The notes under the pieces: model-generated
Told to the model about the DNA's origin: nothing
Databases searched by the model: none
Seen by the model: only the letters and a program-made list of their open reading frames with translations
Made by a program: the position numbers and the translations under genes
Shown: in pieces, positions 29,684-46,766 of the stretch
Position numbering within the stretch: position 1 is the stretch's first letter
Layout of the letters: each line of letters starts with the position of its first letter
Sequence record: NZ_CP086424.1
Length of the DNA stretch: 64,000 bases
Direction: 5' to 3' (one strand)
DNA from: a plasmid

Positions 29684-30303
29684 ATCAGGCTCCAGAACAA
29701 TGGGGCCGTCCCCGGTGAAAGAAGCGTTTGCAGGTCGTCCTGCAAAGCTAATGTGTGAAATGGCATTTTTGCCCGGAAGAAAATGAATTTCAACCTTTTT
29801 ATTCACCGCCTGCTAAAAGCAAGAATTAAGCATAATTAGCGGCGTAGTTCCCGCATTTGGCACTCATCGGAGTTCTCTATGATGAAGGGCTTTCTGAAAC
29901 CAGAAAGTCGATTGCCCCTCTTCTGAATGCGAAACGTTTATGCTTAAAATTTTAGTGATTGACCGGTGCCACTTTACCCGCACAGGGATAGAGGCCTTGC
30001 TTAATCATTCTGGCAGGTTCAGCTCCTCATTTCTGGTATCAGGAATCAATAATCTCCTGTTAGCAAAAGAGCATATTTTGCAATGGAAACCGCATCTGGT
30101 GATCGCGGATTTATACAGTTTTATTAGCGAGACGCACTCCAGTCCGCCAATTAAACCTTTTTTTATGAGTTGTGGCGTCATCCCACTAATTTTACTGCAA
30201 TCAGCAGACAGACAGCATGCACCCATCGTGCCCTCTCAATCCGTAGCCCATTCGGTCTTGACCAAGCACACCACGCTGAACACACTCTCCCACACAATTC
30301 AGG

Positions 30304-33400: not shown

Positions 33401-35897
33401 GATCCCCGATGGATTGGTCCAAGACCCGTTATCGGAATCACCTTCGCTCTCTGGTTCATTGGCCTCCAACGGCGTTCATCCACTGGGGTGGCGGGTAAGT
33501 ATTTTCACCCGTAACGGCACTAGGGTGACGTTGAACGACGAGACTTTCAATGTCGAAGCGGTTGACCCACCAGCTCCGACCGTTGAACTAGCCTCCGACT
33601 ACAACTTCAAAGACAACATCTACTTGGTGCCGATGACAGGTAACTACCTGGGTGATGCCATTATCAACTCTGAACGAGCTGATCTGGATATTGCCATATC
33701 GCGCAACTCGGATGTTCTTGAGTCTGAGACCTTCACTCCGGGATGGGGTGCCACCAATAAGGTGTATCGCCGCATCAATACCGATGAGCGAGCGTTGTGG
33801 GAGGAGACCACCTACAAGGTGAACGCGGCCTACAACAAGGTGCCTGATGTGAAGACTGAGGTTGTCTACCGGGCTATCTCTGCACCTTCTGACAGTATCC
33901 GTCCTATCGTTGAAGTTAAAGGTGATACCGCGATTGACACCCAGGCATTGCCGGTTAGGGTTCTCATCCGTGATCAGTACAAACCTGATGGTGACTATGA
34001 CGCTAACACGATGGGGGTGTGGAAAGTACGCCTGATCCAGCAAAAGGCCTACAACGAGACGGTTGCGCTCACTGATTATGCGGAAGCATCGAACGGTGAA
34101 GCTCAGTTCTCAGTAGACCTGTCTGGTGTGGATACTTCCTCCGTCCGTATCGCTGCTGAGGCTGTTCTGGAAAGCCCTGTTGAGGGTTACAACCGCACAG
34201 AGTTGTCTATCAGACCTGCCTTCTTGACAGTGCTTCGCGGTGGTGCCATCGGTGCTGGCGTGGAGGCTCGCAAGTTGTCTGGTGAAGCTCCGTTCACTGC
34301 TGTGTTCAAGCTATCTTTGGACGACCGTCAGGATCTCCGGGCTACCGGCCAGGTTGTGTGGGAAACCAGTAAGGACGACGGTAAAACCTGGGAGCAGTTC
34401 ATCCCAGAAGATCGATACAAGTATCAGCTTGTGAAGACCTTCGACAAGGGGGAGTACCAGGTTCGGGCCAAGGTGGTGAACGTCAACTCAGGTGCGGAAA
34501 AGTACACCGAAGCGGTCAGTGTTGTCGCTTACGACAAACCTGATATTGCTGTTATCGGCCCGACCACGTTGTTTGTCGGAAGTGAAGGCAAGTACACAGC
34601 GAACCTGACGTTGAACGATGAGCCAATCTCCGGTGGCAATGCCATTGTTGAGTGGTCTACTGACGGTGGCAAAACCTACGCGCAGACAGGGGATAGCATC
34701 ACGCTTTCGAGCGATGAAGAAACCCGATACCGCCTGTGGGCTCGTGTGCGCTCTGCCACGGCACCGGCTGATGACGGCTATGCCTATGAAGTTGCGAAAA
34801 CGGCGGTTGACTTCCGAGCAGTGAAGGCACCTCGTCCTTACGTGACAGGGCCGCGAGTTATTGAGACCGGTAAGAAGTATGTGTTCAAAGCCGAAACCAG
34901 CCTGCCTTACCGTGGGATGGACGTGAAGCTGAACGGGTTCTTCACGCTGCCTGATGGCTCGATTGTGCAGGGTGATACTGCTGAGTACGAACCCTCTGAC
35001 ACTGACCTCAATCAGGCTACTGTAGAAACGAAGTACACCACCTGGATCGAAGGATACCGAGATCAGGGTGCAGAGGCTTCGCATAGCCTACGCTCCCGCG
35101 TTTGGCAGTATGTATGGCCGAGCTTCGGAATGCAGGTTAGGAAGAACGCAGACGTGGCTCCTGCGACGATCACCGCGTCAGTGCGGCCAATTGCCTTCAA
35201 CGGCAAGCTGGAAGAGCCGACCTACGAGTGGGAGTTGCCGGAAGGCGCTGTGATTCAGGATCAGCGGCAGGATATTGTCCGGTCCTTTGTGATCAATGAG
35301 CCGGGTGATTACAACATCAAGGTCACTGTCCGTGATGCTCGCGGCCATGAGACCGTGATCGAGCAACCGCTCAAGATCGGCCAGGCAGCGCCCTATGCCA
35401 TTGACCTGCAATACTCTGGCTCGAACAAATACGAGCGTGAGCCTCTGGATGTGCTGTTGCGACCGTACATTTCTGGCGGCCACCCACGCGACCGTATTTC
35501 GACTCGTGTTTATTCGGTAGATGGTACACCGTTGGAAAGCAGTGGTTACTACGGCAGAGCAACTCTGGGCGCTGGTGAGCACAGCATCAAGCTGAAAATA
35601 ACCTCAGAAATGGGGCATGAAGCTGAGGGCGAGGTGAACATCAATGTTGCAGAGAACAAGTTGCCTGCATGTAGCCTGAGCTCACGAGAGACCGTTGGGT
35701 CGTGGATCGTCTATGCGAACTGCGAAGATACCGATGGCCGCATGAAGTCCTACGAATGGACCATTGCCGGTGAGTTGCAGAGCATCAGCTCTGATCGAGT
35801 GACTATCAGCAAGGGCACCTATGAAACGATGCCGACCATCTCTCTGGTTGGGGTCGATGACTCTGGGGGCAAATCCGAAGCTGTTACCATGAACTAA
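30411..35897 (+). CDS. Very large (1828 aa) secreted protein with BNR/Asp-box motifs
   Basis: Signal peptide MINFKPKIPAMLGALAVLTAGAAHA. SxDxGxTW-type motifs (SKDDGKTW, STDGGKTY). GGAG Shine-Dalgarno 6 nt upstream. Confidence 0.7.
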   Translation: MINFKPKIPAMLGALAVLTAGAAHAELLEYTFKAPDGTQRSLTPNANYANPTGNISFALSAGIDRKVKISVLRSDGTVVSTATSHLLGATDRITVGGKSYYGAELQLPAPVGGAYTIRAEILASDGSTVQTDEYPLTVDVTPPTYSSLAPVYSNYGQVTSGDVWKLGLGGSEDNAFLLSGISDESPIKGVKAKLYRQDGSLYKDVSVNYDDANGQARQSFQSGFFPASDLDEVFTLQFEISDSAGNSYLSPRQKVMFDSITNAPSAPFGVYDPSSTNNLGPGLTGFVAYTEGMTVKTNPIKLAWRVPRDNWHEYREGGINMTNALGEMSKVGEDASYVYLVTTAPYGNTDGNYWRWVNFGQWGGGGIAYNLTLSPSAPKSPRLLGVDYNYSDIGWSSFYRYWVNNSVLPVTVSSIRVKVEPRPYVQTAVHRGSCEIPVGQDSCVIANSFTMAKGTTGYVHDNATVFNPDKSLRSNPLWAEVNWNDQHYPQLSQQFDQNSKVFTLFVNQPGRGAYFDRLRLRSAWIEDSKGNKLSPTGGLIANNWENYTYQWDLKTLPEGQYSLVAAAEEMHGPLTRQPMFQITSDRTPPTMTLSVADGAAIQTLDDVVITLADAIDPSPKLTSIALVGGPANDKVQLSWREESKGRFRLEYPVMFPSLKEGESYTLTVSGEDAQGNAVQKAVGFEYKPRQVMLADGMDGKVMVPAVTHEFVHADGKRIIETKPLTLSDGAVVTGSYDVFATLRSDAKVPLVVNGVRIEPGQTMGIMSQHDFGASGGRLSIPVKPAVPDVVGSSSLLVMTSAPNSPILVVDINTWKGTAKLSAESWTIRQVIDPVKIYALPESGVPCRFTTKEDVAMAADPIRDPVCLLQWDRTPDEAEQTTQDNNGMKVAGLVGQAVSIGEQPVEYSLYLFSGDGSKVKVGSGSQNLTVTTAYGSVGYTPIDDIAQVNRVIEDFDVNFKQSKGPDCSITLSADRAKKEAANKAVGSASRACLFEWQQIPDGLVQDPLSESPSLSGSLASNGVHPLGWRVSIFTRNGTRVTLNDETFNVEAVDPPAPTVELASDYNFKDNIYLVPMTGNYLGDAIINSERADLDIAISRNSDVLESETFTPGWGATNKVYRRINTDERALWEETTYKVNAAYNKVPDVKTEVVYRAISAPSDSIRPIVEVKGDTAIDTQALPVRVLIRDQYKPDGDYDANTMGVWKVRLIQQKAYNETVALTDYAEASNGEAQFSVDLSGVDTSSVRIAAEAVLESPVEGYNRTELSIRPAFLTVLRGGAIGAGVEARKLSGEAPFTAVFKLSLDDRQDLRATGQVVWETSKDDGKTWEQFIPEDRYKYQLVKTFDKGEYQVRAKVVNVNSGAEKYTEAVSVVAYDKPDIAVIGPTTLFVGSEGKYTANLTLNDEPISGGNAIVEWSTDGGKTYAQTGDSITLSSDEETRYRLWARVRSATAPADDGYAYEVAKTAVDFRAVKAPRPYVTGPRVIETGKKYVFKAETSLPYRGMDVKLNGFFTLPDGSIVQGDTAEYEPSDTDLNQATVETKYTTWIEGYRDQGAEASHSLRSRVWQYVWPSFGMQVRKNADVAPATITASVRPIAFNGKLEEPTYEWELPEGAVIQDQRQDIVRSFVINEPGDYNIKVTVRDARGHETVIEQPLKIGQAAPYAIDLQYSGSNKYEREPLDVLLRPYISGGHPRDRISTRVYSVDGTPLESSGYYGRATLGAGEHSIKLKITSEMGHEAEGEVNINVAENKLPACSLSSRETVGSWIVYANCEDTDGRMKSYEWTIAGELQSISSDRVTISKGTYETMPTISLVGVDDSGGKSEAVTMN

Positions 35898-35913
35898 GGT
35901 TCATTCCTCTCAA

Positions 35914-35942
35914 AGCCCGGTTCAGACCGGGCTTTTTTTTGT
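35914..35942 (+). terminator. Rho-independent terminator
   Basis: AGCCCGGTTCAGACCGGGCT plus TTTTTTTT. Confidence 0.7.
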
Positions 35943-35955: not shown

Positions 35956-35980
35956 TGTCCAAATTGGGCTATTACAGAGG
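35956..35980 (+). promoter_or_regulatory. AcaCD/SetCD-like activator box, copy 5 (PdsbC–traC operon)
   Basis: TGTCCAAATTGGGCTATTACAGAGG, 90 bp upstream of dsbC. Confidence 0.55.
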
Positions 35981-36045: not shown

Positions 36046-36753
36046 ATGCGGACAAAATTACTTGGGGCGCTGATGGTGTTCGGGATTATTACCGGCACGG
36101 CTCATGCGTCATCGAAATTGGAAATCACCGATCCCAGAGCGGCGAAGATAGAGGACATTGTAGAGCTACCCATCAAAGGGGTTCGAGCCGTCCAAAGTGA
36201 TGGGCAGATCATGTTCCTCTCTGAAAACGGACGATTTGTTATTTCAGGACAAATCTACGACCTGTGGAGCAAGAAGCCCCTCAACACGATGTCCCAAATG
36301 AGGGATGTAGCGGAGCGTATCCACTTCAAGAGCATGGGCATGGATGTGGACACGCTGAACACTGTGTCGATGGGGCGTGGTGACAAAGAGGTGGTGGTCT
36401 TTGTTGATCCTAGGTGCGCGGTTTGCCATCAGCTCATGGGTGATGCCAAATCGCTGGTGGATGATTACACCTTTAAATTTATCGTGATTCCAGCTCTGGG
36501 TGCTGAGTCCAACCGCCTGGCAAAAAACTTGTACTGCGCGAAAGACAAAACCCACGCGCTTGATGCGCTGATGAACAACACCCTGGGTTCCCTTCCTTCA
36601 AAAGAAACCTGCGACCCCGGCCAATACGACCAAACGCTGCTGACAGCTCATTTCATTGGGATTGAGGGCGTTCCGTTCGTTGTTGCTCCGGATGGTCGTG
36701 TCAGCAAAGGACGTCCGAAGAACCTGAAATCATGGTTGGAGAGTGCTGAATGA
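36046..36753 (+). CDS. dsbC: Periplasmic thiol:disulfide interchange protein DsbC-like
   Basis: Signal peptide. CxxC active site (RCAVCHQ). 235 aa. Confidence 0.8.
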   Translation: MRTKLLGALMVFGIITGTAHASSKLEITDPRAAKIEDIVELPIKGVRAVQSDGQIMFLSENGRFVISGQIYDLWSKKPLNTMSQMRDVAERIHFKSMGMDVDTLNTVSMGRGDKEVVVFVDPRCAVCHQLMGDAKSLVDDYTFKFIVIPALGAESNRLAKNLYCAKDKTHALDALMNNTLGSLPSKETCDPGQYDQTLLTAHFIGIEGVPFVVAPDGRVSKGRPKNLKSWLESAE

Positions 36754-39197
36754 TCGTAACCATCAAAAAGAAACTCGAAGAAACGTTGATCCCGGAGCAC
36801 TTGCGAGCTGCCGGGATTATTCCTGTCCTGGCCTATGACGAAGACGATCATGTCTTCCTTATGGATGATCACAGTGCAGGCTTTGGTTTCATGTGTGAGC
36901 CCCTGTGTGGTGCCGATGAAAAAGTTCAGGAGCGAATGAACGGTTTCCTGAATCAGGAGTTCCCGTCGAAGACTACGCTCCAGTTTGTCCTGTTCCGCTC
37001 CCCGGACATCAATCAGGAGATGTACCGGATGATGGGTTTGCGTGATGGCTTCCGTCACGAGCTGCTGACATCTGTTATCAAGGAACGGATTAACTTCCTC
37101 CAGCACCACACGACAGATCGCATATTTGCCAAGACCAACAAAGGTATCTACGACAATGGCTTGATCCAAGACCTCAAGCTGTTCGTTACGTGCAAAGTCC
37201 CCATCAAGAACAATAACCCGACTGAAAGCGAACTCCAGCAGCTCGCACAGCTTCGCACGAAGGTCGAATCATCGCTTCAAACCGTTGGTCTGCGTCCTCG
37301 CACAATGACGGCGGTGAACTACATCCGGATCATGAGCACCATCCTGAATTGGGGGCCAGATGCTTCATGGCGACATGACTCTGTGGATTGGGAGATGGAT
37401 AAGCCCATCTGCGAGCAAATCTTCGATTACGGCACCGACGTGGAAGTCAGCAAGAATGGCATCAGGCTGGGTGACTACCACGCGAAAGTCATGTCAGCGA
37501 AAAAGCTGCCTGACGTTTTCTACTTTGGTGATGCGTTGACCTATGCCGGGGATCTCAGCGGCGGCAATTCCAGCATCAAAGAAAACTACATGGTCGTGAC
37601 CAATGTTTTTTTCCCTGAGGCAGAAAGCACGAAAAACACTCTGGAGCGCAAACGCCAGTTCACTGTAAACCAAGCCTACGGGCCGATGCTCAAATTCGTG
37701 CCGGTGCTGGCGGACAAGAAGGAGAGCTTCGACACTCTCTATGAGTCCATGAAAGAGGGGGCTAAGCCAGTCAAGATCACCTACTCGGTGGTTTTATTTG
37801 CTCCAACCAAAGAACGTGTTGAAGCGGCGGCGATGGCCGCACGAAACATCTGGCGTGAATCTCGGTTCGAGCTGATGGAGGACAAGTTCGTTGCTCTGCC
37901 GATGTTCCTCAACTGCCTGCCATTCTGTACCGACCGGGATGCAGTGCGAGACCTATTCCGCTACAAGACCATGACAACCGAGCAGGCTGCTGTGGTCCTG
38001 CCGGTGTTTGGGGAATGGAAGGGGACCGGGACCTATCATGCAGCGCTGATTTCCCGCAACGGCCAGCTCATGAGTCTGTCTCTTCACGACAGTAATACCA
38101 ACAAGAACCTGGTGATCGCAGCCGAATCCGGCTCGGGTAAATCGTTCCTTACCAACGAACTGATTTTTTCCTACTTGTCCGAGGGGGCTCAGGTCTGGGT
38201 TATTGATGCCGGTAAGTCCTACCAGAAGTTGTCGGAAATGCTCAATGGCGACTTCGTTCACTTTGAAGAAGGAACGCACGTCTGCCTCAACCCGTTTGAG
38301 CTCATACAGAACTACGAGGACGAAGAAGACGCGATAGTCAGCCTCGTTTGTGCGATGGCTTCGGCTAAGGGCTTGCTGGATGAATGGCAAATCTCTGCGT
38401 TGAAACAGGTCCTTTCTCGCCTGTGGGAAGAGAAAGGTAAAGAGATGAAGGTTGACGACATCGCTGAGCGCTGCCTGGAAGAAGAAAATGACCAGCGCCT
38501 CAAGGATATTGGTCAGCAGCTCTACGCCTTTACGTCGCAGGGCAGCTACGGGAAATACTTCTCTCGCAAGAACAACGTCAGCTTCCAGAACCAGTTCACT
38601 GTACTGGAGCTCGATGAACTGCAAGGGCGTAAGCACTTGCGTCAGGTTGTACTACTCCAGCTTATTTACCAGATCCAGCAAGAAGTATTCCTGGGTGAAC
38701 GTAACCGCAAGAAAGTCGTCATCGTGGATGAGGCCTGGGACCTGCTCAAAGAGGGCGAGGTCTCGGTCTTCATGGAACATGCCTACCGCAAATTCCGTAA
38801 GTACGGTGGCTCCGTTGTCATTGCAACGCAGTCCATCAACGACCTCTATGAGAACGCAGTGGGCCGCGCCATCGCGGAGAACTCGGCCAGCATGTACTTG
38901 CTCGGCCAAACCGAAGAAACCGTGGAATCTGTTAAACGTAGCGGTCGTCTGACCCTTTCAGAGGGCGGGTTCCACACCCTCAAAACGGTACACACCATCC
39001 AAGGCGTGTACTCAGAAATCTTTATCAAATCGAAGAGCGGTATGGGCGTCGGTCGCTTGATAGTGGGCGACTTCCAGAAGCTACTTTATTCGACCGATCC
39101 GGTGGACGTTAACGCCATCGACCAGTTTGTGAAACAAGGCATGAGCATACCTGAGGCAATCAAGGCCGTAATGCGAAGCCGTCGGCAGGCTGCATAA
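36750..39197 (+). CDS. traC: T4SS ATPase TraC (VirB4-like)
   Basis: 815 aa. Walker A AESGSGKS. Walker B VVIVDEAW. Confidence 0.85.
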   Translation: MIVTIKKKLEETLIPEHLRAAGIIPVLAYDEDDHVFLMDDHSAGFGFMCEPLCGADEKVQERMNGFLNQEFPSKTTLQFVLFRSPDINQEMYRMMGLRDGFRHELLTSVIKERINFLQHHTTDRIFAKTNKGIYDNGLIQDLKLFVTCKVPIKNNNPTESELQQLAQLRTKVESSLQTVGLRPRTMTAVNYIRIMSTILNWGPDASWRHDSVDWEMDKPICEQIFDYGTDVEVSKNGIRLGDYHAKVMSAKKLPDVFYFGDALTYAGDLSGGNSSIKENYMVVTNVFFPEAESTKNTLERKRQFTVNQAYGPMLKFVPVLADKKESFDTLYESMKEGAKPVKITYSVVLFAPTKERVEAAAMAARNIWRESRFELMEDKFVALPMFLNCLPFCTDRDAVRDLFRYKTMTTEQAAVVLPVFGEWKGTGTYHAALISRNGQLMSLSLHDSNTNKNLVIAAESGSGKSFLTNELIFSYLSEGAQVWVIDAGKSYQKLSEMLNGDFVHFEEGTHVCLNPFELIQNYEDEEDAIVSLVCAMASAKGLLDEWQISALKQVLSRLWEEKGKEMKVDDIAERCLEEENDQRLKDIGQQLYAFTSQGSYGKYFSRKNNVSFQNQFTVLELDELQGRKHLRQVVLLQLIYQIQQEVFLGERNRKKVVIVDEAWDLLKEGEVSVFMEHAYRKFRKYGGSVVIATQSINDLYENAVGRAIAENSASMYLLGQTEETVESVKRSGRLTLSEGGFHTLKTVHTIQGVYSEIFIKSKSGMGVGRLIVGDFQKLLYSTDPVDVNAIDQFVKQGMSIPEAIKAVMRSRRQAA

Positions 39198-39211
39198 CCA
39201 GGGAGACAGTA

Positions 39212-39529
39212 ATGGACATTAAATCAATCGCAATCGCCGCCATTCTCGGTGCCGCTGGTGGCTTCGGCGGTAGCTACTACGTGATGAGCGAACAAACGGC
39301 AAGCATCCATCAGCGTTTGAATCAAACCCCGCCAGTGGTCGTGGTTGACTTCGCTAAAGTGGCGTCGGCGTATCCCGCTGGTGCCTCTCAGGAGGAAGTT
39401 GAAAGGCTGATGGTCAAGACCAATGACGCAATTTTGAAGTTGAAAGACGCAGGTTATTTGGTCCTTGACGCAAGTGCTGTCGTCGGGGCTCCAAGTGACG
39501 TGTACCTCCCTGATGAGGTGCTGAAATGA
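39212..39529 (+). CDS. Small membrane-anchored T4SS accessory protein
   Basis: N-terminal TM helix, 105 aa, between traC and trhF. Confidence 0.45.
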   Translation: MDIKSIAIAAILGAAGGFGGSYYVMSEQTASIHQRLNQTPPVVVVDFAKVASAYPAGASQEEVERLMVKTNDAILKLKDAGYLVLDASAVVGAPSDVYLPDEVLK

Positions 39530-40056
39530 ATTTTCCACTCAAGAAGTATTTCGTCAAAAAGGAATCCTGGAAGCGCTTCGGGGTTAAGGCAGGTGTGACA
39601 CTAGTGGTTCTTTGGGCTGCTGGTGCGGCCTTTGCCAGCCGCTACCGTATTGGCATTGATCCACAACAGGAGAAGTGCCTGCCGGGTTACACCTTCTTCC
39701 TCATTGATCTGAACGACCAAACTCTGGAGAGGGGAGCGGTTTACGCCTTCCAAGCCAAGAACATGCAGCCTTTCTACAAGGACGGGACTCGCATGGTCAA
39801 AATCCTCACCGGTATGCCGGGGGATAAAGTCGAGATCAACGATAAGTGGAAGATCACCGTCAATGGTGATGTCGTCGGAGAGGGGCTCCAGCTCGCAGGG
39901 AAACTACATCTGCCAGAGAGCCACTTTTACGGCAAGACCACGCTGAAAGAGAACAACTACTGGTTTATGGGCAAAAGCCCATTCAGCTTCGACTCACGTT
40001 ACTGGGGGACTGTGAAAAATGATCAGATCATTGGCCGCGCATATCCCCTGTTCTAA
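39526..40056 (+). CDS. trhF: S26-family signal-peptidase-like TrhF/TraF
   Basis: 176 aa with a TM anchor. Signal-peptidase-like core. Confidence 0.65.
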   Translation: MNFPLKKYFVKKESWKRFGVKAGVTLVVLWAAGAAFASRYRIGIDPQQEKCLPGYTFFLIDLNDQTLERGAVYAFQAKNMQPFYKDGTRMVKILTGMPGDKVEINDKWKITVNGDVVGEGLQLAGKLHLPESHFYGKTTLKENNYWFMGKSPFSFDSRYWGTVKNDQIIGRAYPLF

Positions 40057-41284
40057 GAGCGTTCTGGTGGCGTTGATGTTCTCTGTGGCTGGCGGGGCAT
40101 ACGCTCAAGAGTCTCCGCTCACAGAGCAGGATAAGGCGCTTATTGAGCAAGGAAAGCAAATTGCCCAAAAGGCCCAGAAGATGGAAATGCCATCTCTGTT
40201 GCAAAACCAACACATGGACGAGGCTCAGGCCGAAGCCAAGGCATTTTTCAAGCAGCTCCAAACTACTAACCCAACGCTCAAGGAGATGCACCGGAAACAG
40301 GCTGAAAAGGGTATCTACTCTGACCATCGGATACTGGTTTTCGCCTCGTTGTCTCTTGGCGAACAGGGGTTAGATGACGTCCTAACGGCGGTGTCAGGCC
40401 AGCCTGATTCTGTAATTGTGTTCCGTGGCATCCCGGAAGGAATGAACTTGGGGCAGGGAGTTAAAGCTATTCAGGCGCTCGCGGCCAAAAAAGACCCAGT
40501 GCCGAACATCATCATCAACCCTACGTTGTTCAAAACGTACAACATCACAGCCGTTCCCACGATTGTGATGCTGGAGGATGAGCCGCTGCCTGGCGAACAA
40601 CCAAACGTCGTCGCCCAGGTCTCCGGGTTGTCCGACCCGGTATGGTTGGCTCGGGAAGTGGATAACGGAGAAAAAGGCGATCTCGGCGTTAAGGGGCCGG
40701 TGGAGAAAATCAGTGAGCCAGACCTTATTGATGTTGCCAAGAAACGCCTTGCCAATATCGACTGGGAAGAGAAGAAGAAACAGGCTATAGAGCGCTTCTG
40801 GACCAAGCAGAATTTCAATGAGCTGCCAAGAGCGCCAAAATCTCGAACACGAGAAATTGACCCTAGCGTCATGATCACCAGTGACATCAGCACTCCGGAT
40901 GGCACTGTGTTCGCTCACGCGGGTGACGTGATCAACCCATTGTGCGATCCGAAGGAAGTTTGCAAGCCTGGAACGCGGCCATTTACCCAAGCGGTCGTAG
41001 TTTTCGACCCGCTGGACAAAAAGCAAATGGAACTACTCGCCAAGAAGCTGCCTGAAATCAAGCTGGAGCCTGGCGTACAACGGATCACCTATATCGCCAC
41101 AGAGTTCGACAAAGACAAAGGCTGGGATTCCTACAAGAGTGTCACCGACAACTTTGACGCGCCGGTATATCTGCTGACGCCAGATCTGATTACCCGGTTC
41201 GAGCTGGAGCACACACCGAGCGTCATTACTGCCAGAGGCAAGAAGTTTGTTGTCCGCGAACTTGCTGAGGAGGGCGGTGAATGA
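40019..41284 (+). CDS. traW: TraW (TrbC–TraW fusion type)
   Basis: Signal peptide. 421 aa, about twice the F TraW, consistent with the H-type TrbC–TraW fusion. Confidence 0.7.
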   Translation: MIRSLAAHIPCSKSVLVALMFSVAGGAYAQESPLTEQDKALIEQGKQIAQKAQKMEMPSLLQNQHMDEAQAEAKAFFKQLQTTNPTLKEMHRKQAEKGIYSDHRILVFASLSLGEQGLDDVLTAVSGQPDSVIVFRGIPEGMNLGQGVKAIQALAAKKDPVPNIIINPTLFKTYNITAVPTIVMLEDEPLPGEQPNVVAQVSGLSDPVWLAREVDNGEKGDLGVKGPVEKISEPDLIDVAKKRLANIDWEEKKKQAIERFWTKQNFNELPRAPKSRTREIDPSVMITSDISTPDGTVFAHAGDVINPLCDPKEVCKPGTRPFTQAVVVFDPLDKKQMELLAKKLPEIKLEPGVQRITYIATEFDKDKGWDSYKSVTDNFDAPVYLLTPDLITRFELEHTPSVITARGKKFVVRELAEEGGE

Positions 41285-41952
41285 TTTTTGCCCCGGCTTT
41301 CCAACCAATTAAAGACGTCGGCACAGGTTCGTTTGTCGCTGCTGAGGTACTGGCTCGTTGGTACGACGAAGGCCGGGTTCTTACACCATCCTCTCTGTCA
41401 TCTCCTCCTTATTGGGGACTGGTGGATATGGAGATGGCACGGTTCATTCAGGACAACCTTCATTATTGCTTGGATCTGTACCCGGCTCTCTTTCTGAATG
41501 TCTCCGAACAAACTTTGCAATCAGACGTCATCTTCAAGGCGTGGTGTAGGGTTGTCCGCGACATTGCTAAAAATCACTCATCACGGCTTGTCATCGAGAT
41601 TACAGAGGGCATTCAGGACGCCTCTCTCGCATCGAGATGGGAGGCTCTGACCGAAATAGGGGTTGAGCTGGCGCTGGATGACTATGGAGACAAAAACTCT
41701 TCTCTGGATCGCCTGAGCCGTTATGACTGGCACTATTGCAAGTTTGACGCGAGAAGACTGCGGTCGCTTGAAGACTACCCGGCCATCCTCCACTGCCGCC
41801 GAAAAGGCATACAGCTCATTGCTGAGCAGGTGGAGAGCTTCCCATTGGGGGAGAGCGCCAAATTACTTGGACTGTCATGGCAACAAGGTTTCTATCACGG
41901 GAAGCCTGCTGTCATGGAGAAAAATTTGAATTACGTAAAGGCCTTACCATGA
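41281..41952 (+). CDS. Stand-alone EAL-domain protein (putative c-di-GMP phosphodiesterase) inside the tra operon
   Basis: EVLARW (EAL), LNVS, EITEG, DDYGDK, KFD, AEQVE and QQGFYHGKP motifs in canonical order. Its ATGA start overlaps the traW stop, and its stop overlaps the traU start. Confidence 0.65.
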   Translation: MIFAPAFQPIKDVGTGSFVAAEVLARWYDEGRVLTPSSLSSPPYWGLVDMEMARFIQDNLHYCLDLYPALFLNVSEQTLQSDVIFKAWCRVVRDIAKNHSSRLVIEITEGIQDASLASRWEALTEIGVELALDDYGDKNSSLDRLSRYDWHYCKFDARRLRSLEDYPAILHCRRKGIQLIAEQVESFPLGESAKLLGLSWQQGFYHGKPAVMEKNLNYVKALP

Positions 41953-42956
41953 TGCAAAAAATTCTACGGATCATGGCCGTTAGCGCGGTCTTTTGGGTTG
42001 GTTCGGTATCGGCTGACCCTGGGTGCCAGAATGCGGAAGTGATCGGCGGAAAACTGATTACTGACATCTGCTGGAGCTGTATTTTCCCTATCAAAGTAGC
42101 AGGGGTTCCTATAAGTGGTGGAGGCGGATCATTCCCGAGTGAAGCCGTAAGCAACCCTCTGTGTATGTGCGAGGATAATCTAGGGGTCCCTCGGCCTGGA
42201 GTCACCACTTCTATGTGGGAGCCAGCACGGCTCGTTGAATTTCAGAGAGTGCCTGGCTGCTCATCAGTCTTGAATGGTGTCAGGTTCCCGTTTGATAGGA
42301 CTAACCAAGGGCATCATGGCATGGGAGACATGGATGGTGGTGATGGTTCTTTTATGCACTATCACTACTATGCGTTTCCTCTGTTGGTGATGCTCGATTT
42401 ATTTATTAAGCAGACCTGTAATGCTGATGGGTATATGGATCTCGACATCATGTACATGTCGGAGCTCGACCCGACCTGGAACAATGATGAGCTCGCTTTT
42501 TTTACCAATCCAGAGGCGGCGGCAGTAGCAAACCCAATTGCGGCGGCTGCGTGTACTGCTGATGCTGTCTCATCAACCGCTGGAAAACCTTTAAAACAGC
42601 TTTTCTGGTGTGCTGGTTCATGGGGCACCCTGTATCCATTTAGTGGCAACCAGAATGGTGGAAAAGGTGTTATCCGCGATAGCAGTCTTCTTAGCACAAG
42701 GGTTCTGGCTGCTTTGCATCGCCGGGGGTTAGCGTGGAAGACAATGGGTTCTGAGGCTATGTGTAGAGGCGTTATTAGCCCAACACTACCCAAAACGCAG
42801 TACAAATTCACGCTATTGCATCCGGTTCCAGAGACAAACTCATCTCACGTAATTGGCGAATCCACTCTTACGTGGGGTCTGGCGCGAACTATACCGGCAA
42901 TTGGGCAAGACCCTATTTACACCATCTGGCGATGGAATGATTGCTGTAACAATTGA
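41949..42956 (+). CDS. traU: TraU
   Basis: Signal peptide MMQKILRIMAVSAVFWVGSVSA. Cys-rich periplasmic protein of about 335 aa. Confidence 0.75.
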   Translation: MMQKILRIMAVSAVFWVGSVSADPGCQNAEVIGGKLITDICWSCIFPIKVAGVPISGGGGSFPSEAVSNPLCMCEDNLGVPRPGVTTSMWEPARLVEFQRVPGCSSVLNGVRFPFDRTNQGHHGMGDMDGGDGSFMHYHYYAFPLLVMLDLFIKQTCNADGYMDLDIMYMSELDPTWNNDELAFFTNPEAAAVANPIAAAACTADAVSSTAGKPLKQLFWCAGSWGTLYPFSGNQNGGKGVIRDSSLLSTRVLAALHRRGLAWKTMGSEAMCRGVISPTLPKTQYKFTLLHPVPETNSSHVIGESTLTWGLARTIPAIGQDPIYTIWRWNDCCNN

Positions 42957-42993
42957 GCAGACCCTAACGAATTTGCACGGGCATTTTAGATTA

Positions 42994-43019
42994 TGCCCCA
43001 AAAGGGCCACTACACGTAC
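42994..43019 (+). promoter_or_regulatory. AcaCD/SetCD-like activator box, copy 6 (PtraN)
   Basis: TGCCCCAAAAGGGCCACTACACGTAC. Confidence 0.5.
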
Positions 43020-43059
43020 AGGTGGCCCTTGTCTTCTCAGATAGCATGGGAAGGTTGAA

Positions 43060-45867
43060 ATGGAGAACACAATGCGAAGTCATAATTACTTTATGAAAGC
43101 TGTGGCCTCGCTGTTGACAGTAACCATGTCTGCGCTGCCGATACATTCCTACGCTAACGGTAGCCAAGACCAGGACATCACAGCGGTGGGTAAAGAGGCC
43201 CAGGCTTTCGGACAAAACCTCTCAAACTCATTCAAGTCGAGCTCGGGGACTGTGCAAGATGGCACAATCTCTATGCCGACGTTGAAAGACGGTCAATTCC
43301 AAATGAACGGGGGGAGTCAGATTAATGTCAATGATCTATTCCCCGGAACGAGCGGGACCAACAATAAACCTGATAGTTATTACTTCCCTGATGCCAATAA
43401 ACCTGATGTGGGCGGTCTGCAAGGCATTTACGACTCTGGCGATGACATGGACAGCGTGGGGAATAATGCAAAAGGGTCGCTGTGGAGTGATGCCAATAGT
43501 GCTAATCCATCAATCTCTGGTGCGGCATACAAGGTTCTTCTCGATGCCTCTAATCGATCACGCCCTGATTTCAGTAATGACCCGGTACTAAATCTAAGCA
43601 AAAAGACCTATGAGGATATGGACCTCATCGCAGGTGGCTTTGGGGATTGTTCTGCCGAAACAACCATCAATCAGAATACTATCAACGCCCACATTCCAGA
43701 GTATGAACGGTGTCAGCGTGTTGTAGATCAAAGCGCGGACTGTGAGGTTGTCCATGACTACGACGCCTCTGTGGTGAAGCACTATGATGGTCCATATAAC
43801 CTCAAATCTTGTGGAGAAGGCTGTACTGAGTTGTGGATTGGTCGAGTGGGGGACAACTACTGGAGTGGTAACTGCAAGATTTATGAGGAGTACACGCGGG
43901 TCCAAGTCAGCAATCCAGATGCCATAGTGTCTGCAACGCTTGAATACGCCAAGTGGGATGACTACATGCAAGTGTGGGTCGGTAAGTCCGGCCAAGAGAC
44001 TAAAGTGTGGTCTGGCCCAGATGGCAACTTCCCTCCAGAAACAGCCGGTAGATGTGAGCTCTCCACGAGTTGGGAGCGAAACCCTAATGTTGATGTCACT
44101 CCCTATTTTAAGAACGTGAAAGATGGTGATGTTGTTACGTTTAAGATCCGCGTTTCAGTAAGTGGCGAAGGTGAGGGTTTTGGCCGCATAAAACTCCGCT
44201 ATGACCCATCGAAAGCCATTACCAAGGATGAGTGGGCTCCACAGAGCTGCATGGATTCAGCCAAAGGGGTGGTAGATGGTTTTGCGGAAGGCGAGATCAC
44301 ATGTATAGATGACCCGACTGATGCTACTGGCTGCACAGTCATCAATGGGATCAAAGTTTGCGAATCTCAACTCAAGCCGTCACCTTTGCCTGGTATTCCA
44401 AAACTATGCAAAAAGGTTCGAGTTAAAGCTGACTATGACTTCTATAAGGGGCAAATGGACTGCTGGACAGACCCTCAAGGTGAAACGCACTGTCCGGTAA
44501 ACACGGGCGGGAATCTCGATAGCTGTCAGAAATATGAAGAAAACCCTCAGTGCGGCTTCATCAGTTCCAAATGTGTTGATGGTGCTCAGGGAAGTTCTGG
44601 TACGTGCTACGTCCACGAGGATACTTATGACTGTGGTACAGATGTTTCTGTTCCGACCTTGGAAAAGGAAACTGAGTACCAGTGCGGTGGGCCTATACGC
44701 TGCATGGGAGATGACTGCCTTGATTTGACCAAAACACAAAGCACTGATTTTGCTCGCGCTACTGCGTTGCTCAATGCAGCCCAATTCATGACGCAGGATA
44801 TGAGCTGCACAGGCCAAGATGGGGATGACAATCCTACCGGGGATGAAAACGTTATTTGCTCTGCTTTTGCAGGGGAAGCTGGCGAATGCAAGATAGCTGT
44901 TGGGGGAGTTTCTGATTGCTGTGAAAAGCCAACCAATATATCTCTTGCCGATTATCTGAACCTAATAATGGCCGTTCCAAAGCTCGATGGCGCAGTGATG
45001 GGGCTGACTGATGGTAATGCGCTTAAAGGTGCTTATCAGGTACTTAGGGAACCTGCCCTTCAAGGGTGGACAGAAGTCACAAAACCGTTCACAAGTTATA
45101 TAGAGAACGTTTCAGGTGCTGTTGATTCGTTCTTCCAGCCTGTAGAGCAGTTTGTTGATCAACTCATTGACCAGCTCAAAGAGCAAGTCAAAGAAGTGAT
45201 GATGGATGTCATGAAATCAGCAGGCCAAGATGCAGCAACAGAGCAGGCGGCTGCCGCAGCATCTGAACAAGCTGCCGAAGCAATGATGGAGACTGCGACA
45301 ACATGGCTTAGCACTGCCATGACGATATATACCGTCTATGTCGTTGCGATGGTGATGATCCAGATGATTTATAAGTGCGAGGAAGAAGAGTTCACTATGA
45401 ACGCAAAAAGAGCGCTCAAGAATTGCACCTATGTAGGCTCTTATTGTAAATCTAAGGTGTTGGGCGCTTGTATTGAAAAAAGAGAAGCGTATTGCTGCTT
45501 CAATTCTCCGCTCTCTCGTATTATACAAGAACAGGTTCGCCCTCAATTGGGGCAGAACTTTGGAGACCCCAAAAATCCTCAGTGTGAAGGGATTCCACTA
45601 GATAAAATTGCCGAAATTGATTGGAGCAAAATTAATTTGGATGAGTGGCTTGGGATATTACAGCAGAACGGTAAATTCCCTGATCCGGCCTCAATAAATC
45701 TCGACTCGCTGACTGGAGCAGGGAATGACTTCAATATTGACGGGACGCGGAAGAATGCTCAGGAAAGGGCGTTGGAGCGGTTGGAAGGGATTGATATTGA
45801 CGCGAAGCGAAAAGAGGCGACAAACAGCATAGACCCTCAAACAGGCGCGCCAACTGGTGGTGGATAA
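43060..45867 (+). CDS. traN: Outer-membrane mating-pair stabilisation protein TraN
   Basis: 935 aa. Signal peptide. Very many Cys residues. C-terminal conserved CxxC cluster. Confidence 0.8.
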   Translation: MENTMRSHNYFMKAVASLLTVTMSALPIHSYANGSQDQDITAVGKEAQAFGQNLSNSFKSSSGTVQDGTISMPTLKDGQFQMNGGSQINVNDLFPGTSGTNNKPDSYYFPDANKPDVGGLQGIYDSGDDMDSVGNNAKGSLWSDANSANPSISGAAYKVLLDASNRSRPDFSNDPVLNLSKKTYEDMDLIAGGFGDCSAETTINQNTINAHIPEYERCQRVVDQSADCEVVHDYDASVVKHYDGPYNLKSCGEGCTELWIGRVGDNYWSGNCKIYEEYTRVQVSNPDAIVSATLEYAKWDDYMQVWVGKSGQETKVWSGPDGNFPPETAGRCELSTSWERNPNVDVTPYFKNVKDGDVVTFKIRVSVSGEGEGFGRIKLRYDPSKAITKDEWAPQSCMDSAKGVVDGFAEGEITCIDDPTDATGCTVINGIKVCESQLKPSPLPGIPKLCKKVRVKADYDFYKGQMDCWTDPQGETHCPVNTGGNLDSCQKYEENPQCGFISSKCVDGAQGSSGTCYVHEDTYDCGTDVSVPTLEKETEYQCGGPIRCMGDDCLDLTKTQSTDFARATALLNAAQFMTQDMSCTGQDGDDNPTGDENVICSAFAGEAGECKIAVGGVSDCCEKPTNISLADYLNLIMAVPKLDGAVMGLTDGNALKGAYQVLREPALQGWTEVTKPFTSYIENVSGAVDSFFQPVEQFVDQLIDQLKEQVKEVMMDVMKSAGQDAATEQAAAAASEQAAEAMMETATTWLSTAMTIYTVYVVAMVMIQMIYKCEEEEFTMNAKRALKNCTYVGSYCKSKVLGACIEKREAYCCFNSPLSRIIQEQVRPQLGQNFGDPKNPQCEGIPLDKIAEIDWSKINLDEWLGILQQNGKFPDPASINLDSLTGAGNDFNIDGTRKNAQERALERLEGIDIDAKRKEATNSIDPQTGAPTGGG

Positions 45868-45905: not shown

Positions 45906-46766
45906 TTACGCTTCTGGGTAAACAAATAACTCTGCTTTTCCCTGATCAAGAAGGTAAGGGAAAGCAACTTTTTCGCCATTATCCAGCTCAACCGATTTTG
46001 GAGCAAGGTAGAGGTAGGCCCAAGCTGGTAGCTGTTTGCTAATAGCTGCGTAGATCGCTTGCTGAGGAGCATGGCTTGCTGCCCCATTACCGACATTCAC
46101 AAAGTTGTATGCGGTCTCATGGCCTGATGTGAAGGCATACGCTGTACCTTGAACGCCAGAGACAAAATTAGGAGCTGACCCTAGGCGAGGCTCCACGATT
46201 TTCACCTTAACGGAACACATGTCAGCTACCTTACTTTGTCCGTTCACCCACGTCGGGCAACCCCATTCATTCTTGTAGAACTGATAGGTTAGGCGACCGT
46301 CTTTGTCATACAGAAGCGTGAAATTGGCACCCAAATCAGTCAGCGCTGACTCAATGGAAACTTTCACATGTGAAAGAAATTTGGCCTGAGCGTCTGCCGG
46401 TGAAACTGCTTCGTTAGCAGGCATCCAAGCGATCAAGCTATTGCGAGCGCCATGCTGTTTGGGGCCGATAGCCCAGTTCGCAAGGTTGACCAAGCCACCT
46501 TGCCAGTCGGTCATTCCGAGCTGAGGGGACATGTAGCCAGACAGCACGTAGGCTGCCCCAAACGTTTTGGTGTCGGTCAGACGCTCCAGCTTGTCACGCG
46601 GAACAGAAGCGTCTTGGATGCCTGTTACCAGGCCACCGGCCTCCGCGATGTTGTAAGCGCGACTGTGATTGGTTTTGTACGCTGTGGGTTCGTAACTGCT
46701 GGTGGATGCACAGCCAGATAGAGCTGCTACAGCCAGAGCCACGGTGGTGATTAAAGCCTTTTTCAT
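45906..46766 (-). CDS. Lipoprotein, hypothetical
   Basis: MKKALITTVALAVAALSGCAS lipobox. 286 aa. Confidence 0.6.
   Translation of the reverse strand: MKKALITTVALAVAALSGCASTSSYEPTAYKTNHSRAYNIAEAGGLVTGIQDASVPRDKLERLTDTKTFGAAYVLSGYMSPQLGMTDWQGGLVNLANWAIGPKQHGARNSLIAWMPANEAVSPADAQAKFLSHVKVSIESALTDLGANFTLLYDKDGRLTYQFYKNEWGCPTWVNGQSKVADMCSVKVKIVEPRLGSAPNFVSGVQGTAYAFTSGHETAYNFVNVGNGAASHAPQQAIYAAISKQLPAWAYLYLAPKSVELDNGEKVAFPYLLDQGKAELFVYPEA
46361..46376. repeat. 16-bp palindrome CTTTCACATGTGAAAG, copy 3 (inside the lipoprotein CDS)
   Basis: Identical to the other copies. Confidence 0.9.

What the first reader, a model, noticed from the sequence alone, without database searches (positions are those of the whole stretch)
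41281..41952. Intact stand-alone EAL domain gene translationally coupled between traW and traU
The 223-aa ORF has the EAL catalytic signature in order: EVL, the Mg-binding N in LNVS, EITEG, DDYGDK, KFD, AEQVE and QQGF. It has no sensor domain. Its start overlaps the traW stop and its stop overlaps the traU start, so it is expressed stoichiometrically with mating-pair formation proteins. A c-di-GMP phosphodiesterase inside a conjugation operon suggests local lowering of c-di-GMP in the donor during transfer, for example to counter biofilm or matrix programmes or a c-di-GMP-dependent defence. It could also be a catalytically repurposed structural T4SS component.
Basis: seen in the sequence. Interest (0 to 1): 0.6.

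Follow-up and report, generated by a model that had tools for sequence, protein, structure and literature searches.

The report
IncC plasmid EAL gene vcrx082

Summary
Window 41281-41952 (+) is a 223-aa ORF that matches Pfam EAL (E 7e-25). Its ATG overlaps the traW stop (ATGA) and its TGA overlaps the traU start.

The window is IncC plasmid backbone. The same gene is annotated 'EAL domain-containing protein' (WP_000575345.1) in about 750 PLSDB plasmids. [quoted passage not shown] No held paper tests its function.

- The traW-EAL-traU slot is kept in IncA, Edwardsiella, Azomonas, Marinobacter, Halomonas, Vibrio and Comamonas plasmids, down to 31-40% EAL identity.
- The canonical catalytic residues are essentially invariant and omega is 0.12-0.27.
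- The protein has no signal peptide or membrane segment, unlike its neighbours.
- The slot is empty in five sampled elements, some with TraU just as similar, and by published operon maps in SXT/R391. The gene is therefore an accessory modulator, not a structural T4SS part.
- One Pseudoalteromonas/Rheinheimera plasmid lineage carries EAL and TraU as a single ORF.

Best reading: an active cytoplasmic c-di-GMP phosphodiesterase switched on together with the mating apparatus. Activity and phenotype are untested, loop 6 is non-canonical, and 'stoichiometric' expression is not supported.

The parts
35912..35935 (+). Intrinsic-terminator-like hairpin ending the upstream Ig-like-domain gene. It marks the 5' boundary of the dsbC operon.
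   Evidence: 10-bp stem with 6 GC pairs, followed by a T run; sequence.
35956..35969 (+). AcaCD-box-like motif TGTCCAAATTGGGC upstream of dsbC, the putative activator site of the operon that contains the EAL gene.
   Evidence: I derived the motif TGYCCMAAWWGGGC from this site and the traN site. It occurs 9 times in the window against 0.37 expected. ChIP-exo peaks upstream of dsbC and traN are published (PMC4207636). Identity with the published logo could not be checked because figures are not held.
36046..36753 (+). dsbC, first gene of the operon.
   Evidence: RefSeq annotation at the same coordinates in an identical stretch of NZ_CP028170.1.
36750..39197 (+). traC, the VirB4-type T4SS ATPase.
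39212..39529 (+). Small conserved ORF (vcrx079 equivalent), 105 aa, with an N-terminal hydrophobic segment.
   Evidence: no Pfam hit.
39526..40056 (+). trhF, an S26 signal-peptidase-like protein.
   Evidence: Pfam PF10502, E 4.8e-18.
40019..41284 (+). traW, the TrbC-type F-pilus assembly protein. Its TGA stop at 41282-41284 overlaps the EAL ATG.
   Evidence: Pfam PF09673, E 1.2e-18.
41269..41273 (+). GGAGG Shine-Dalgarno sequence inside the 3' end of traW, 7 nt before the EAL ATG.
   Evidence: Sequence read.
41281..41952 (+). The finding itself: a stand-alone EAL-domain gene (vcrx082; WP_000575345.1), 223 aa, predicted cytoplasmic.
41952..42956 (+). traU. The RefSeq start is ATG 41952 and an in-frame ATG lies at 41949. 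Either start overlaps the EAL stop.
   Evidence: Pfam PF06834, E 2.2e-98.
42994..43007 (+). Second AcaCD-box-like motif TGCCCCAAAAGGGC upstream of traN. It marks the 3' boundary of the EAL-containing operon.
   Evidence: The literature states that traN has its own AcaCD-dependent promoter (PMC4542580).

Best explanation
The ORF is vcrx082, a conserved backbone gene of IncC/IncA and related 'A/C-like' MOBH/MPF-F conjugative plasmids. It encodes a soluble, cytoplasmic, sensor-less EAL-domain enzyme.

The most likely mechanism has four steps:
1. [quoted passage not shown] It is therefore made when a cell becomes transfer-competent.
2. Inferred from sequence: it hydrolyses c-di-GMP to pGpG by the standard two-metal EAL mechanism. 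Every metal-binding, substrate-binding and general-base residue is present and conserved.
3. Inferred: because it has no input domain, its activity is set by its expression. Induction of the transfer regulon then automatically lowers c-di-GMP in the donor, and possibly in a new transconjugant while AcaCD is on.
4. Speculative: the lower c-di-GMP favours mating. It could relieve a c-di-GMP-dependent brake on the T4SS, or it could switch off matrix and aggregation programmes that hinder pilus contact.

The functional parallel is PdeH (YhjH), the sensor-less EAL enzyme of the flagellar regulon that is driven by FlhDC. AcaCD is an FlhDC-like activator. The gene is an accessory modulator, not a structural part of the secretion machine.
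For: Identity and regulation:
- The sequence is 100% identical to the annotated EAL gene of IncC plasmids; 752 PLSDB records match, 745 of them at full length.
- The operon composition and AcaCD dependence are published (PMC4542580; PMC4207636; PMC5389848).
- In the window there is a terminator plus an AcaCD-like box before dsbC and another box before traN. Between them there is no such box, no + strand promoter-like site and no intergenic gap above 15 nt.

Enzyme competence:
- The Pfam, PDB and fold matches are to active EAL phosphodiesterases.
- Q8, P9, E22, L24, R26, N73, E106, E109, D133, D134, K154, D156, E182, E185, Q202 and G203 correspond one-to-one to the residues shown by mutagenesis to matter in ProE and RocR (PMC7290235; PMC11537037).
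- In a 34-sequence alignment spanning 31-100% identity, these positions are invariant apart from single-lineage changes: E106K in one Vibrio plasmid, Q8K in one sequence, non-proline residues at P9 in six sequences, and D156 replaced by E or S in about ten.

Selection:
- NG86 omega is 0.12-0.27 in five pairs with unsaturated dS.
- The gene is retained in about 807 of about 820 A/C plasmids that carry traW.

Linkage to the T4SS:
- The same slot, usually with overlapping start and stop, is filled in lineages whose TraW is only 41-58% identical.
- One lineage carries EAL and TraU as a single ORF.

Location in the cell: the maximum Kyte-Doolittle 19-residue score is 0.78 for the EAL protein, against 1.47-1.70 for the N-termini of its neighbours.
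Against: - No biochemical or genetic test was found. 'vcrx082' occurs once in the searchable literature, only as a name in an operon.
- Loop 6, which is needed for dimerisation and catalysis in RocR, is DDYGDKNSS here rather than DDFG(T/A)GYSS. Across the family it is DD(Y/F)G-x-x-x-S-(S/T). By Romling's scheme, as quoted, conserved catalytic residues with a divergent loop 6 do not guarantee activity.
- The domain is short (223 aa). The usual 'AE(E/D)TGLI' stretch after the EAL motif is replaced by PPxWGxVD.
- The gene evolves 2-6 times faster at non-synonymous sites than traW and traU.
- The slot is empty in several related T4SS operons and in SXT/R391, so conjugation by this type of machine does not need it.
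- Nothing here shows which c-di-GMP-dependent process is the relevant target.
Confidence: 0.6

Rival explanations
1. The protein is mainly a c-di-GMP sensor or 'trigger' protein rather than a bulk phosphodiesterase. It binds c-di-GMP, with slow or no turnover, and passes the signal to the T4SS by protein contact at the inner membrane, as FimX does for type IV pili or LapD for LapG.
For: - Loop 6 is non-canonical and variable.
- The protein evolves faster than its neighbours, as expected if it co-evolves with a partner.
- It is translationally linked to periplasmic and membrane Mpf proteins.
- In one lineage the EAL is fused in-frame to TraU through a hydrophobic segment, which would tether it to the membrane at the machine.
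- In that lineage E185 is A, D156 is N, and N73 is S in 2 of 9 variants.
Against: -
- Here E22, N73, E106, D133, D134, K154 and E182 are kept across almost the whole family.
- No partner has been identified.
Confidence: 0.17
2. The gene is a host-manipulation or cargo gene with no role in the mechanics of transfer. It lowers global c-di-GMP to change host lifestyle (dispersal, motility, less matrix) or to reduce plasmid cost. It sits in the tra operon only because that gives convenient AcaCD-dependent expression.
For: - Its distribution among closely related T4SS operons is patchy.
- A 33%-identical homologue in an Aeromonas plasmid lies outside any tra operon.
- c-di-GMP enzymes are common on mobile elements. 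Examples are the diguanylate cyclases of SXT/R391 ICEs and the Tn21 EAL (PMC10333796; PMC3915882).
Against: - Exact positional conservation between traW and traU, with overlapping codons, holds across plasmids as far apart as Comamonas and Vibrio.
- The fusion with TraU is hard to explain for a gene unrelated to the machine.
- Cargo genes in A/C plasmids normally sit in the known variable regions, not inside tra operons.
Confidence: 0.15
3. The protein is an anti-defence enzyme that destroys cyclic-oligonucleotide immune signals (CBASS-type or similar) in donor or recipient.
For: Only the general idea that a nuclease of cyclic dinucleotides could do this. The gene is carried on a broad-host-range plasmid.
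Against: - No PADLOC match.
- The gene is not in the leading region, where early anti-defence genes lie. It is expressed from a late, AcaCD-dependent Mpf operon.
- EAL domains are c-di-GMP specific as a rule (established knowledge).
- No defence or anti-defence neighbours.
Confidence: 0.04
4. The ORF is an inert remnant, a decaying domain carried along passively in the operon.
For: It evolves faster than its neighbours, it is shorter than typical EAL domains, and it is absent from some relatives.
Against: - Omega is 0.12-0.27.
- It is full-length in 745 of 752 records.
- The catalytic residues are invariant at 31-40% overall identity.
- The structure model is confident, with pLDDT 90.7.
Confidence: 0.03

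Closest known systems
vcrx082 of pVCR94 / RefSeq WP_000575345.1 'EAL domain-containing protein' of IncC plasmids
   Same: It is the same gene. Nucleotide identity is 100% to many IncC plasmids, with the same position between traW (vcrx081) and traU (vcrx083) and the same operon.
   Different: Nothing differs. The literature gives it only a locus name and no function.
PdeH (YhjH) of E. coli/Salmonella, the sensor-less EAL phosphodiesterase of the flagellar regulon
   Same: Both are stand-alone EAL domains without an input domain. Each is expressed as a member of the regulon of an FlhDC-type master activator, and AcaCD is described as FlhDC-like in PMC4207636. In both cases enzyme level, not a ligand, would set activity. 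This is a parallel in how it works, drawn from my own knowledge of PdeH.
   Different: No specific sequence relationship beyond the shared domain was tested here. PdeH serves a flagellar motor brake (YcgR), whereas no c-di-GMP effector is known for this T4SS. The loop 6 sequences differ.
RocR (P. aeruginosa), TBD1265 (T. denitrificans), PdeA, PA3825 and YahA/PdeL: structurally and enzymatically characterised EAL phosphodiesterases
   Same: They share the fold (Foldseek E 4e-14 to 1e-11, TM 0.66-0.79) and the complete catalytic residue set. RocR also has the EVL variant of the EAL motif.
   Different: Identity is only 19-26%. The IncC protein has no receiver or other partner domain and is about 25 residues shorter. 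Its loop 6 is DDYGDKNSS instead of DDFGTGYSS, and the AE(E/D)TGLI stretch is replaced.
Degenerate EAL-only proteins (YdiV/STM1344, STM1697, BvgR) and EAL-type receptors (FimX, LapD)
   Same: Some are stand-alone EAL folds that act through protein contacts.
   Different: Those proteins have lost most catalytic residues; BvgR lacks 12 of 13 and YdiV neither binds nor cleaves c-di-GMP. The IncC protein keeps all of them.
c-di-GMP enzymes on other mobile elements: DgcK/DgcL of SXT/R391 ICEs, the Tn21/Tn501 EAL ORF and PvrR on PAPI-1
   Same: They are c-di-GMP turnover genes carried by conjugative or transposable elements.
   Different: Those genes are cargo in variable regions or transposons. The ICE enzymes have the opposite activity, since they synthesise c-di-GMP. 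None is embedded in a mating-pair-formation operon.

Membership tests
EAL domain (Pfam PF00563) | Profile match above the curated gathering score over most of the domain. | tested here: met
   88.2 bits against a cutoff of 31.3, E 7.1e-25, residues 3-209 aligned to model positions 13-236 of 236.
EAL domain (Pfam PF00563) | TIM-barrel-like EAL fold. | tested here: met
   AlphaFold2 pLDDT 90.7 and pTM 0.87. The top 50 Foldseek PDB hits are all EAL domains, with probability 1.00.
Catalytically competent EAL c-di-GMP phosphodiesterases (class 1 in Romling's scheme) | Metal-binding, substrate-binding and general-base residues are present: Q, E-x-L-x-R, N, E-x-x-E, DD, K-x-D, E-x-x-E and Q-G. | tested here: met
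   Q8, E22, L24, R26, N73, E106, E109, D133, D134, K154, D156, E182, E185, Q202 and G203 are all present. They match the residue list and are conserved across 34 orthologues.
Catalytically competent EAL c-di-GMP phosphodiesterases (class 1 in Romling's scheme) | Canonical loop 6, DDFG(T/A)GYSS. | tested here: not met
   The sequence is DDYGDKNSS. Only D, D, an aromatic residue, G and S-S are kept. The (T/A)-G-Y positions are D-K-N here and are variable across the family. This places the protein nearer 'class 2', meaning conserved catalytic residues with a divergent loop 6.
Catalytically competent EAL c-di-GMP phosphodiesterases (class 1 in Romling's scheme) | Measured Mg2+/Mn2+-dependent hydrolysis of c-di-GMP to pGpG. 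| not testable with these tools
   This needs purified protein. No report was found in 10 literature searches.
[quoted passage not shown] | Gene order, and identity to the IncC backbone. | tested here: met
   The window is identical to NZ_CP028170.1 from about 32.5 kb to 50 kb, with the same gene coordinates. The published operon is quoted.
[quoted passage not shown] | AcaCD-dependent transcription. | not testable with these tools
   Taken from published ChIP-exo and RNA-seq work. In the window, only a motif consistent with it was found upstream of dsbC.
Structural F-type T4SS (Mpf) component | Envelope location (signal peptide or membrane segment) and universal presence in homologous T4SS operons. 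| tested here: not met
   There is no hydrophobic segment. The slot is empty in L094, L095, L096, L099 and L086, and in SXT/R391.
Anti-phage defence or anti-defence protein | Match to a known defence-system model, or a defence-island context. | tested here: not met
   PADLOC gives 0 families. The neighbours are tra genes.

The most novel reading that the evidence does not exclude
The slot EAL could be a dedicated, machine-associated phosphodiesterase of a large clade of MOBH/MPF-F conjugation systems. It would dock at the cytoplasmic face of the T4SS, and in Pseudoalteromonas plasmids it would literally be tethered to it as an EAL-TM-TraU fusion. There it would create a local c-di-GMP sink that relieves an as yet unknown c-di-GMP brake on pilus biogenesis or DNA transfer. 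This would be a conjugation counterpart of the PdeH-YcgR flagellar circuit, and it would make transfer of IncC resistance plasmids sensitive to the c-di-GMP state of the donor.
Probability: 0.15. Interest if true: 0.7.

Novelty: already known. Interest (0 to 1): 0.33.

Why it matters
IncC plasmids are major carriers of carbapenemase and cephalosporinase genes, and their transfer regulon has been studied closely. Even so, this conserved member of the mating-apparatus operon has no assigned role.

If it is an active phosphodiesterase that tunes transfer, c-di-GMP level would become a host-dependent control knob for the spread of these plasmids. That would tie biofilm state to transfer, and the field would have a simple, testable link between second-messenger signalling and an F-type T4SS.

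If a clean deletion has no phenotype, the gene is one more accessory c-di-GMP gene on a mobile element. The annotation itself adds nothing new. The value lies in the comparative evidence gathered here: deep synteny, invariant catalytic residues, patchy presence and the TraU fusion. That evidence defines what to test.

Tried and rejected
- Literature. I looked for a functional study of the gene under every name I could think of: vcrx082, EAL with IncC, pVCR94, AcaCD, TraDIS, and traW/traU with c-di-GMP. 
- Papers not held. Three papers that could bear on the question could not be read: the Hancock et al. 2020 IncC TraDIS study, the Madsen et al. 2018 survey of c-di-GMP genes on plasmids and the Tchigvintsev et al. 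2010 TBD1265 mutagenesis. I therefore could not establish whether transposon insertions in this gene affect conjugation. I also could not establish what the TBD1265 Glu-546 position does; that position falls in the replaced AE(E/D)TGLI stretch. I dropped that line rather than rely on memory.
- Family libraries. The NCBIfam scan found only partial, far-sub-threshold hits to multidomain phosphodiesterases and no equivalog. PADLOC found nothing.
- Rfam. I scanned the window for c-di-GMP riboswitches and found none. The only hit was a guanidine-II riboswitch.
- Structural-component idea. Rejected on localisation and patchy distribution.
- Pseudogene idea. Rejected on omega and conservation.
- Irrelevant hit. 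The Acidithiobacillus paper from the last search only mentions pR388 Tra.
- SXT/R391. That point rests on two published operon descriptions.
Full report
**1. The observation**

The window has an ATG-initiated ORF at 41281-41952 on the + strand that encodes 223 residues. The DNA shows gaATGAtt at 41279-41286. The ATG of this ORF (41281-41283) therefore overlaps the TGA (41282-41284) that ends the upstream 421-aa ORF.

At the 3' end the sequence is ccATGATGc. The TGA stop (41950-41952) overlaps two in-frame ATGs, at 41949 and 41952, of the downstream ORF. RefSeq records start that gene at the position equal to 41952.

Pfam assigns the three ORFs to TrbC_Ftype (TraW, E 1.2e-18), EAL (E 7.1e-25, 88 bits, residues 3-209 on model 13-236/236) and TraU (E 2.2e-98).

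**2. What the locus is**

The 672 bases are 100% identical to hundreds of IncC plasmids. In PLSDB, 752 records match and 745 of them are full length. All but one are typed conjugative, and the sampled records are typed MOBH/MPF_F. The gene is annotated 'EAL domain-containing protein', WP_000575345.1. From about 32.5 kb to 50 kb the window is base-for-base identical to the IncC plasmid NZ_CP028170.1, with the same gene coordinates.

In the IncC prototype pVCR94 the gene is vcrx082. [quoted passage not shown] It contrasts this with 'dsbC-traC-s093-trhF-traWUN' in SXT/R391 (PMC4542580). TraN is Vcrx084 (PMC5389848), which fits the numbering. ChIP-exo peaks for AcaCD lie upstream of dsbC and traN (PMC4207636).

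The window agrees with this picture:
- A terminator-like hairpin lies at 35912-35935.
- TGTCCAAATTGGGC lies at 35956, upstream of dsbC, and TGCCCCAAAAGGGC lies at 42994, upstream of traN.
- The degenerate motif I derived from these two sites occurs 9 times in the window against 0.37 expected. None lies inside 36046-42956.
- No + strand promoter-like site lies inside the operon.
- All gene junctions from dsbC to traU overlap or are at most 15 nt apart.

Co-transcription with the Mpf genes is therefore well supported.

A GGAGG at 41269-41273 sits 7 nt before the EAL ATG. The gene thus has its own ribosome-binding site as well as the ATGA overlap. Translational coupling is possible, but equal stoichiometry cannot be inferred.

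'vcrx082' appears in only one held paper, and only as a name. No held paper reports an activity or a phenotype.

**3. Is it a working enzyme?**

By sequence, the closest solved proteins are active phosphodiesterases: TBD1265 (2e-8), PdeA, RocR and PA3825. An AlphaFold2 model built on 22 orthologues is confident (pLDDT 90.7, pTM 0.87). Its 50 best PDB matches are all EAL domains.

Two papers list the residues needed for activity. One counts 13 of them: four that contact the substrate, seven at the metal site, one Glu that holds loop 6 and one Glu that positions the catalytic water (PMC11537037). The other reports alanine scanning of ProE at Q314, P315, E328, L330, R332, N387, E419, E422, D449, D450, K470, D472, E506, E509, Q526 and G527 (PMC7290235). 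By motif position these map onto Q8, P9, E22, L24, R26, N73, E106, E109, D133, D134, K154, D156, E182, E185, Q202 and G203 of the IncC protein. All are present.

In a 34-sequence alignment of the orthologous family (31-100% identity), E22, L24, R26, N73, E109, D133, D134, K154, E182, E185, Q202 and G203 are invariant. E106 is K in a single Vibrio alginolyticus plasmid and Q8 is K in one sequence. P9 is replaced in six sequences. D156 is E or S in about ten sequences. Two further slot orthologues from Marinobacter- and Halomonas-type contigs keep the same set.

There are caveats:
- Loop 6 is DDYGDKNSS rather than DDFG(T/A)GYSS. Across the family only DD-(Y/F)-G and S-(S/T) are kept. S140 lines up with RocR S302 by position in the motif, and this mapping is my inference.
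- The stretch that is usually AE(E/D)TGLI is PPxWGxVD here.
- The domain is about 25 residues shorter than usual.

I therefore rate activity as likely but unproven.

**4. Selection and distribution**

Nei-Gojobori estimates for the EAL gene give omega 0.12 (IncC type 1 vs type 2), 0.24-0.27 (IncC vs a Shewanella plasmid) and 0.14-0.17 (vs IncA). The comparable values are 0.04-0.20 for traW and 0.02-0.15 for traU where dS is not saturated. The gene is under purifying selection, but its dN is 2-6 times that of its neighbours.

Retention is near universal in A/C plasmids. About 807 PLSDB records carry an orthologue at 60% protein identity or more, against about 820 carrying TraW at 80% or more.

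The slot traW-EAL-traU is conserved well beyond IncA/IncC:

| Element | EAL identity | TraW identity | TraU identity |
|---|---|---|---|
| IncA plasmid | 73% | 94% | 87% |
| Edwardsiella anguillarum | 53% | 72% | 85% |
| Azomonas macrocytogenes | 44% | 50% | 76% |
| Vibrio alginolyticus plasmid | 40% | 58% | 69% (first 61 aa only) |
| Comamonas plasmid (betaproteobacterium) | 34% | 41% | not measured |
| Marinobacter-type contig | 37% | not measured | 76% |
| Halomonas-type contig | 31% | not measured | 72% |
| Three metagenome lineages | 34-39% | not measured | not measured |

Presence is nevertheless patchy. Four operons whose TraU is 80%, 75%, 70% and 62% identical to the IncC protein have traW directly followed by traU, or only a 55-aa ORF between them (a tblastn check found no EAL remnant in the two checked, L094 and L095). 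A Photobacterium plasmid has a 44-aa ORF there. SXT/R391 is published as traWUN. One 33%-identical homologue in an Aeromonas plasmid lies outside any tra operon.

A machine this similar works without the gene, so the protein is not a structural subunit.

**5. Location in the cell**

The EAL protein has no hydrophobic stretch. Its maximum 19-residue Kyte-Doolittle mean is 0.78. TraW, TraU, TrhF and Vcrx079 each have an N-terminal signal or anchor segment scoring 1.47-1.70. In this operon it is thus a cytoplasmic protein, as is the ATPase TraC by established knowledge, among exported ones.

**6. An unexpected relative**

A TraU search returned a 585-aa protein with both EAL and TraU domains. Its contig shows traC, a small ORF, trhF and traW, followed by one ORF that covers both domains.

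The cluster holds at least nine distinct 585-589-aa versions from independent sources. These include a Pseudoalteromonas agarivorans plasmid (AYM88978.1, seen on 30 contigs), a Rheinheimera MAG and a version listing Tara among its sources.

The versions differ by in-frame insertions or deletions in the linker, which preserve the frame. The linker contains a 19-residue hydrophobic segment with a Kyte-Doolittle mean of 1.92. This segment is the TraU signal peptide, now internal. The only in-frame start codon in the linker is a TTG without a Shine-Dalgarno sequence.

If the ORF is translated as one chain, the topology would be cytoplasmic EAL, membrane helix, periplasmic TraU. This is gene-fusion evidence that the EAL works next to the machine. 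It is a prediction from ORFs, not a demonstrated protein, and RefSeq alternatively annotates a 332-aa TraU on the same contigs. In this lineage E185 is A, D156 is N, and N73 is S in two of nine variants.

**7. Mechanism**

Shown:
- The gene's identity, its operon and its AcaCD control (from the literature).
- The EAL fold and the complete, conserved catalytic residue set.
- Purifying selection.
- The deep but patchy synteny.

Inferred:
- The protein hydrolyses c-di-GMP.
- With no input domain, its activity follows its expression.
- Induction of the transfer regulon therefore lowers c-di-GMP in transfer-competent cells.

Speculative:
- The target of that drop. It could be a brake on the T4SS or matrix and aggregation programmes.
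- Whether the effect is local.

The closest parallel in how it works is PdeH/YhjH, the sensor-less EAL enzyme of the FlhDC-driven flagellar regulon (my own knowledge). AcaCD is itself described as reminiscent of FlhDC (PMC4207636).

The rivals are a sensor or trigger protein, a host-manipulation cargo gene, an anti-defence enzyme and an inert remnant. They are weighed in the rival-explanation entries. The last two have little or no support.

**8. Novelty and score**

Its kind, a stand-alone EAL phosphodiesterase, is well known, and c-di-GMP genes on mobile elements are a known theme. I did not find three things described in the held literature: the depth of the traW-EAL-traU synteny, the invariance of the catalytic residues across it, and the EAL-TraU fusion. 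These make a reasonable, cheap experimental lead. A specialist would find it mildly interesting rather than surprising.

I set interest at 0.33. The most novel reading not excluded is a machine-docked phosphodiesterase that relieves a c-di-GMP brake on conjugation. I give it probability 0.15 and interest 0.7 if true.

Noticed in passing
L093:4001-5758 (metagenome contig); proteins P0052, P0167 (AYM88978.1, Pseudoalteromonas agarivorans plasmid), P0168, P0170, P0174-P0176, P0178, P0180: In one plasmid lineage (Pseudoalteromonas, Rheinheimera, marine metagenomes) the slot EAL and TraU form a single continuous ORF of 585-589 aa. The TraU signal peptide becomes an internal hydrophobic segment (aa 249-267, KD 1.92). 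In-frame indels in the linker keep the frame, and the only in-frame start in the linker is a TTG without a Shine-Dalgarno sequence. The predicted topology is cytoplasmic EAL, membrane helix, periplasmic TraU.
   Followed up: partly
window 40019-45867 compared with L004 (IncA) and L006 (Shewanella profunda): Synonymous divergence jumps abruptly next to the EAL gene. IncC vs IncA gives dS 0.44 in traW, 1.13 in the EAL gene and saturation in traU and traN. IncC vs Shewanella gives dS 0.17 in traW and the EAL gene but 1.66 in traU. This looks like recombination mosaicism with breakpoints on either side of the EAL gene, possibly linked to exchange of the traU-traN-sfx exclusion module.
   Followed up: partly
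L002:7001-7705 (Vibrio alginolyticus plasmid NZ_CP014052.1): This slot EAL has K in place of the metal-binding E106 (VIKITE instead of VIEITE). It is the only orthologue of the 34 in alignment A3 that lacks this core metal-site residue; in the separate EAL-TraU fusion lineage N73 is S in two of nine variants. In the same plasmid traC is interrupted by an IS5, so its transfer system may be decaying.
   Followed up: no
window 29702-29746 (-): A guanidine-II (mini-ykkC) riboswitch scores 47.2 bits against a gathering score of 32. It lies directly upstream of sugE (about 29366-29683, - strand) and next to the lipocalin (blc) gene. The window therefore carries the accessory sugE-blc segment that IncC plasmids hold between traA and the Ig-like gene.
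   Followed up: no
window 3475, 13178, 20882, 21553, 30315, 35956, 42994, 47613 (+) and 13179 (-): The 14-mer TGYCCMAAWWGGGC occurs nine times against 0.37 expected. Where I checked (30315, 35956, 42994, 47613) it lies shortly upstream of a + strand gene. It is probably the AcaCD box that marks AcaCD-dependent promoters, including one before the 5.5-kb Ig-like-domain gene at 30411-35897.
   Followed up: partly
L003:6992-7633 (Aeromonas sp. plasmid NZ_CP077202.1); protein P0036: A 213-aa member of the same EAL subfamily (about 33% identity, all catalytic residues kept) sits among small hypothetical genes, away from any tra operon, in a MOBH plasmid typed only 'mobilizable'. The subfamily is therefore not strictly tied to the traW-traU slot.
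   Followed up: no
window 1-30200 compared with NZ_CP028170.1: Upstream of about 30.2 kb the window is out of register with the otherwise identical IncC plasmid used for annotation. Same-coordinate identity drops to the random level, which indicates an insertion or deletion of accessory DNA near the sugE/blc region. I did not map it.
   Followed up: no
window 45906-46766 (-) and 46889-47530 (-): The 286-aa ORF just after traN corresponds by position, size and published description to sfx (vcrx085), the surface-exclusion lipoprotein. That paper places the transfer activator gene acaB on the other side of sfx from traN, which fits the following ORF. This is consistent with PMC11493245.
   Followed up: no
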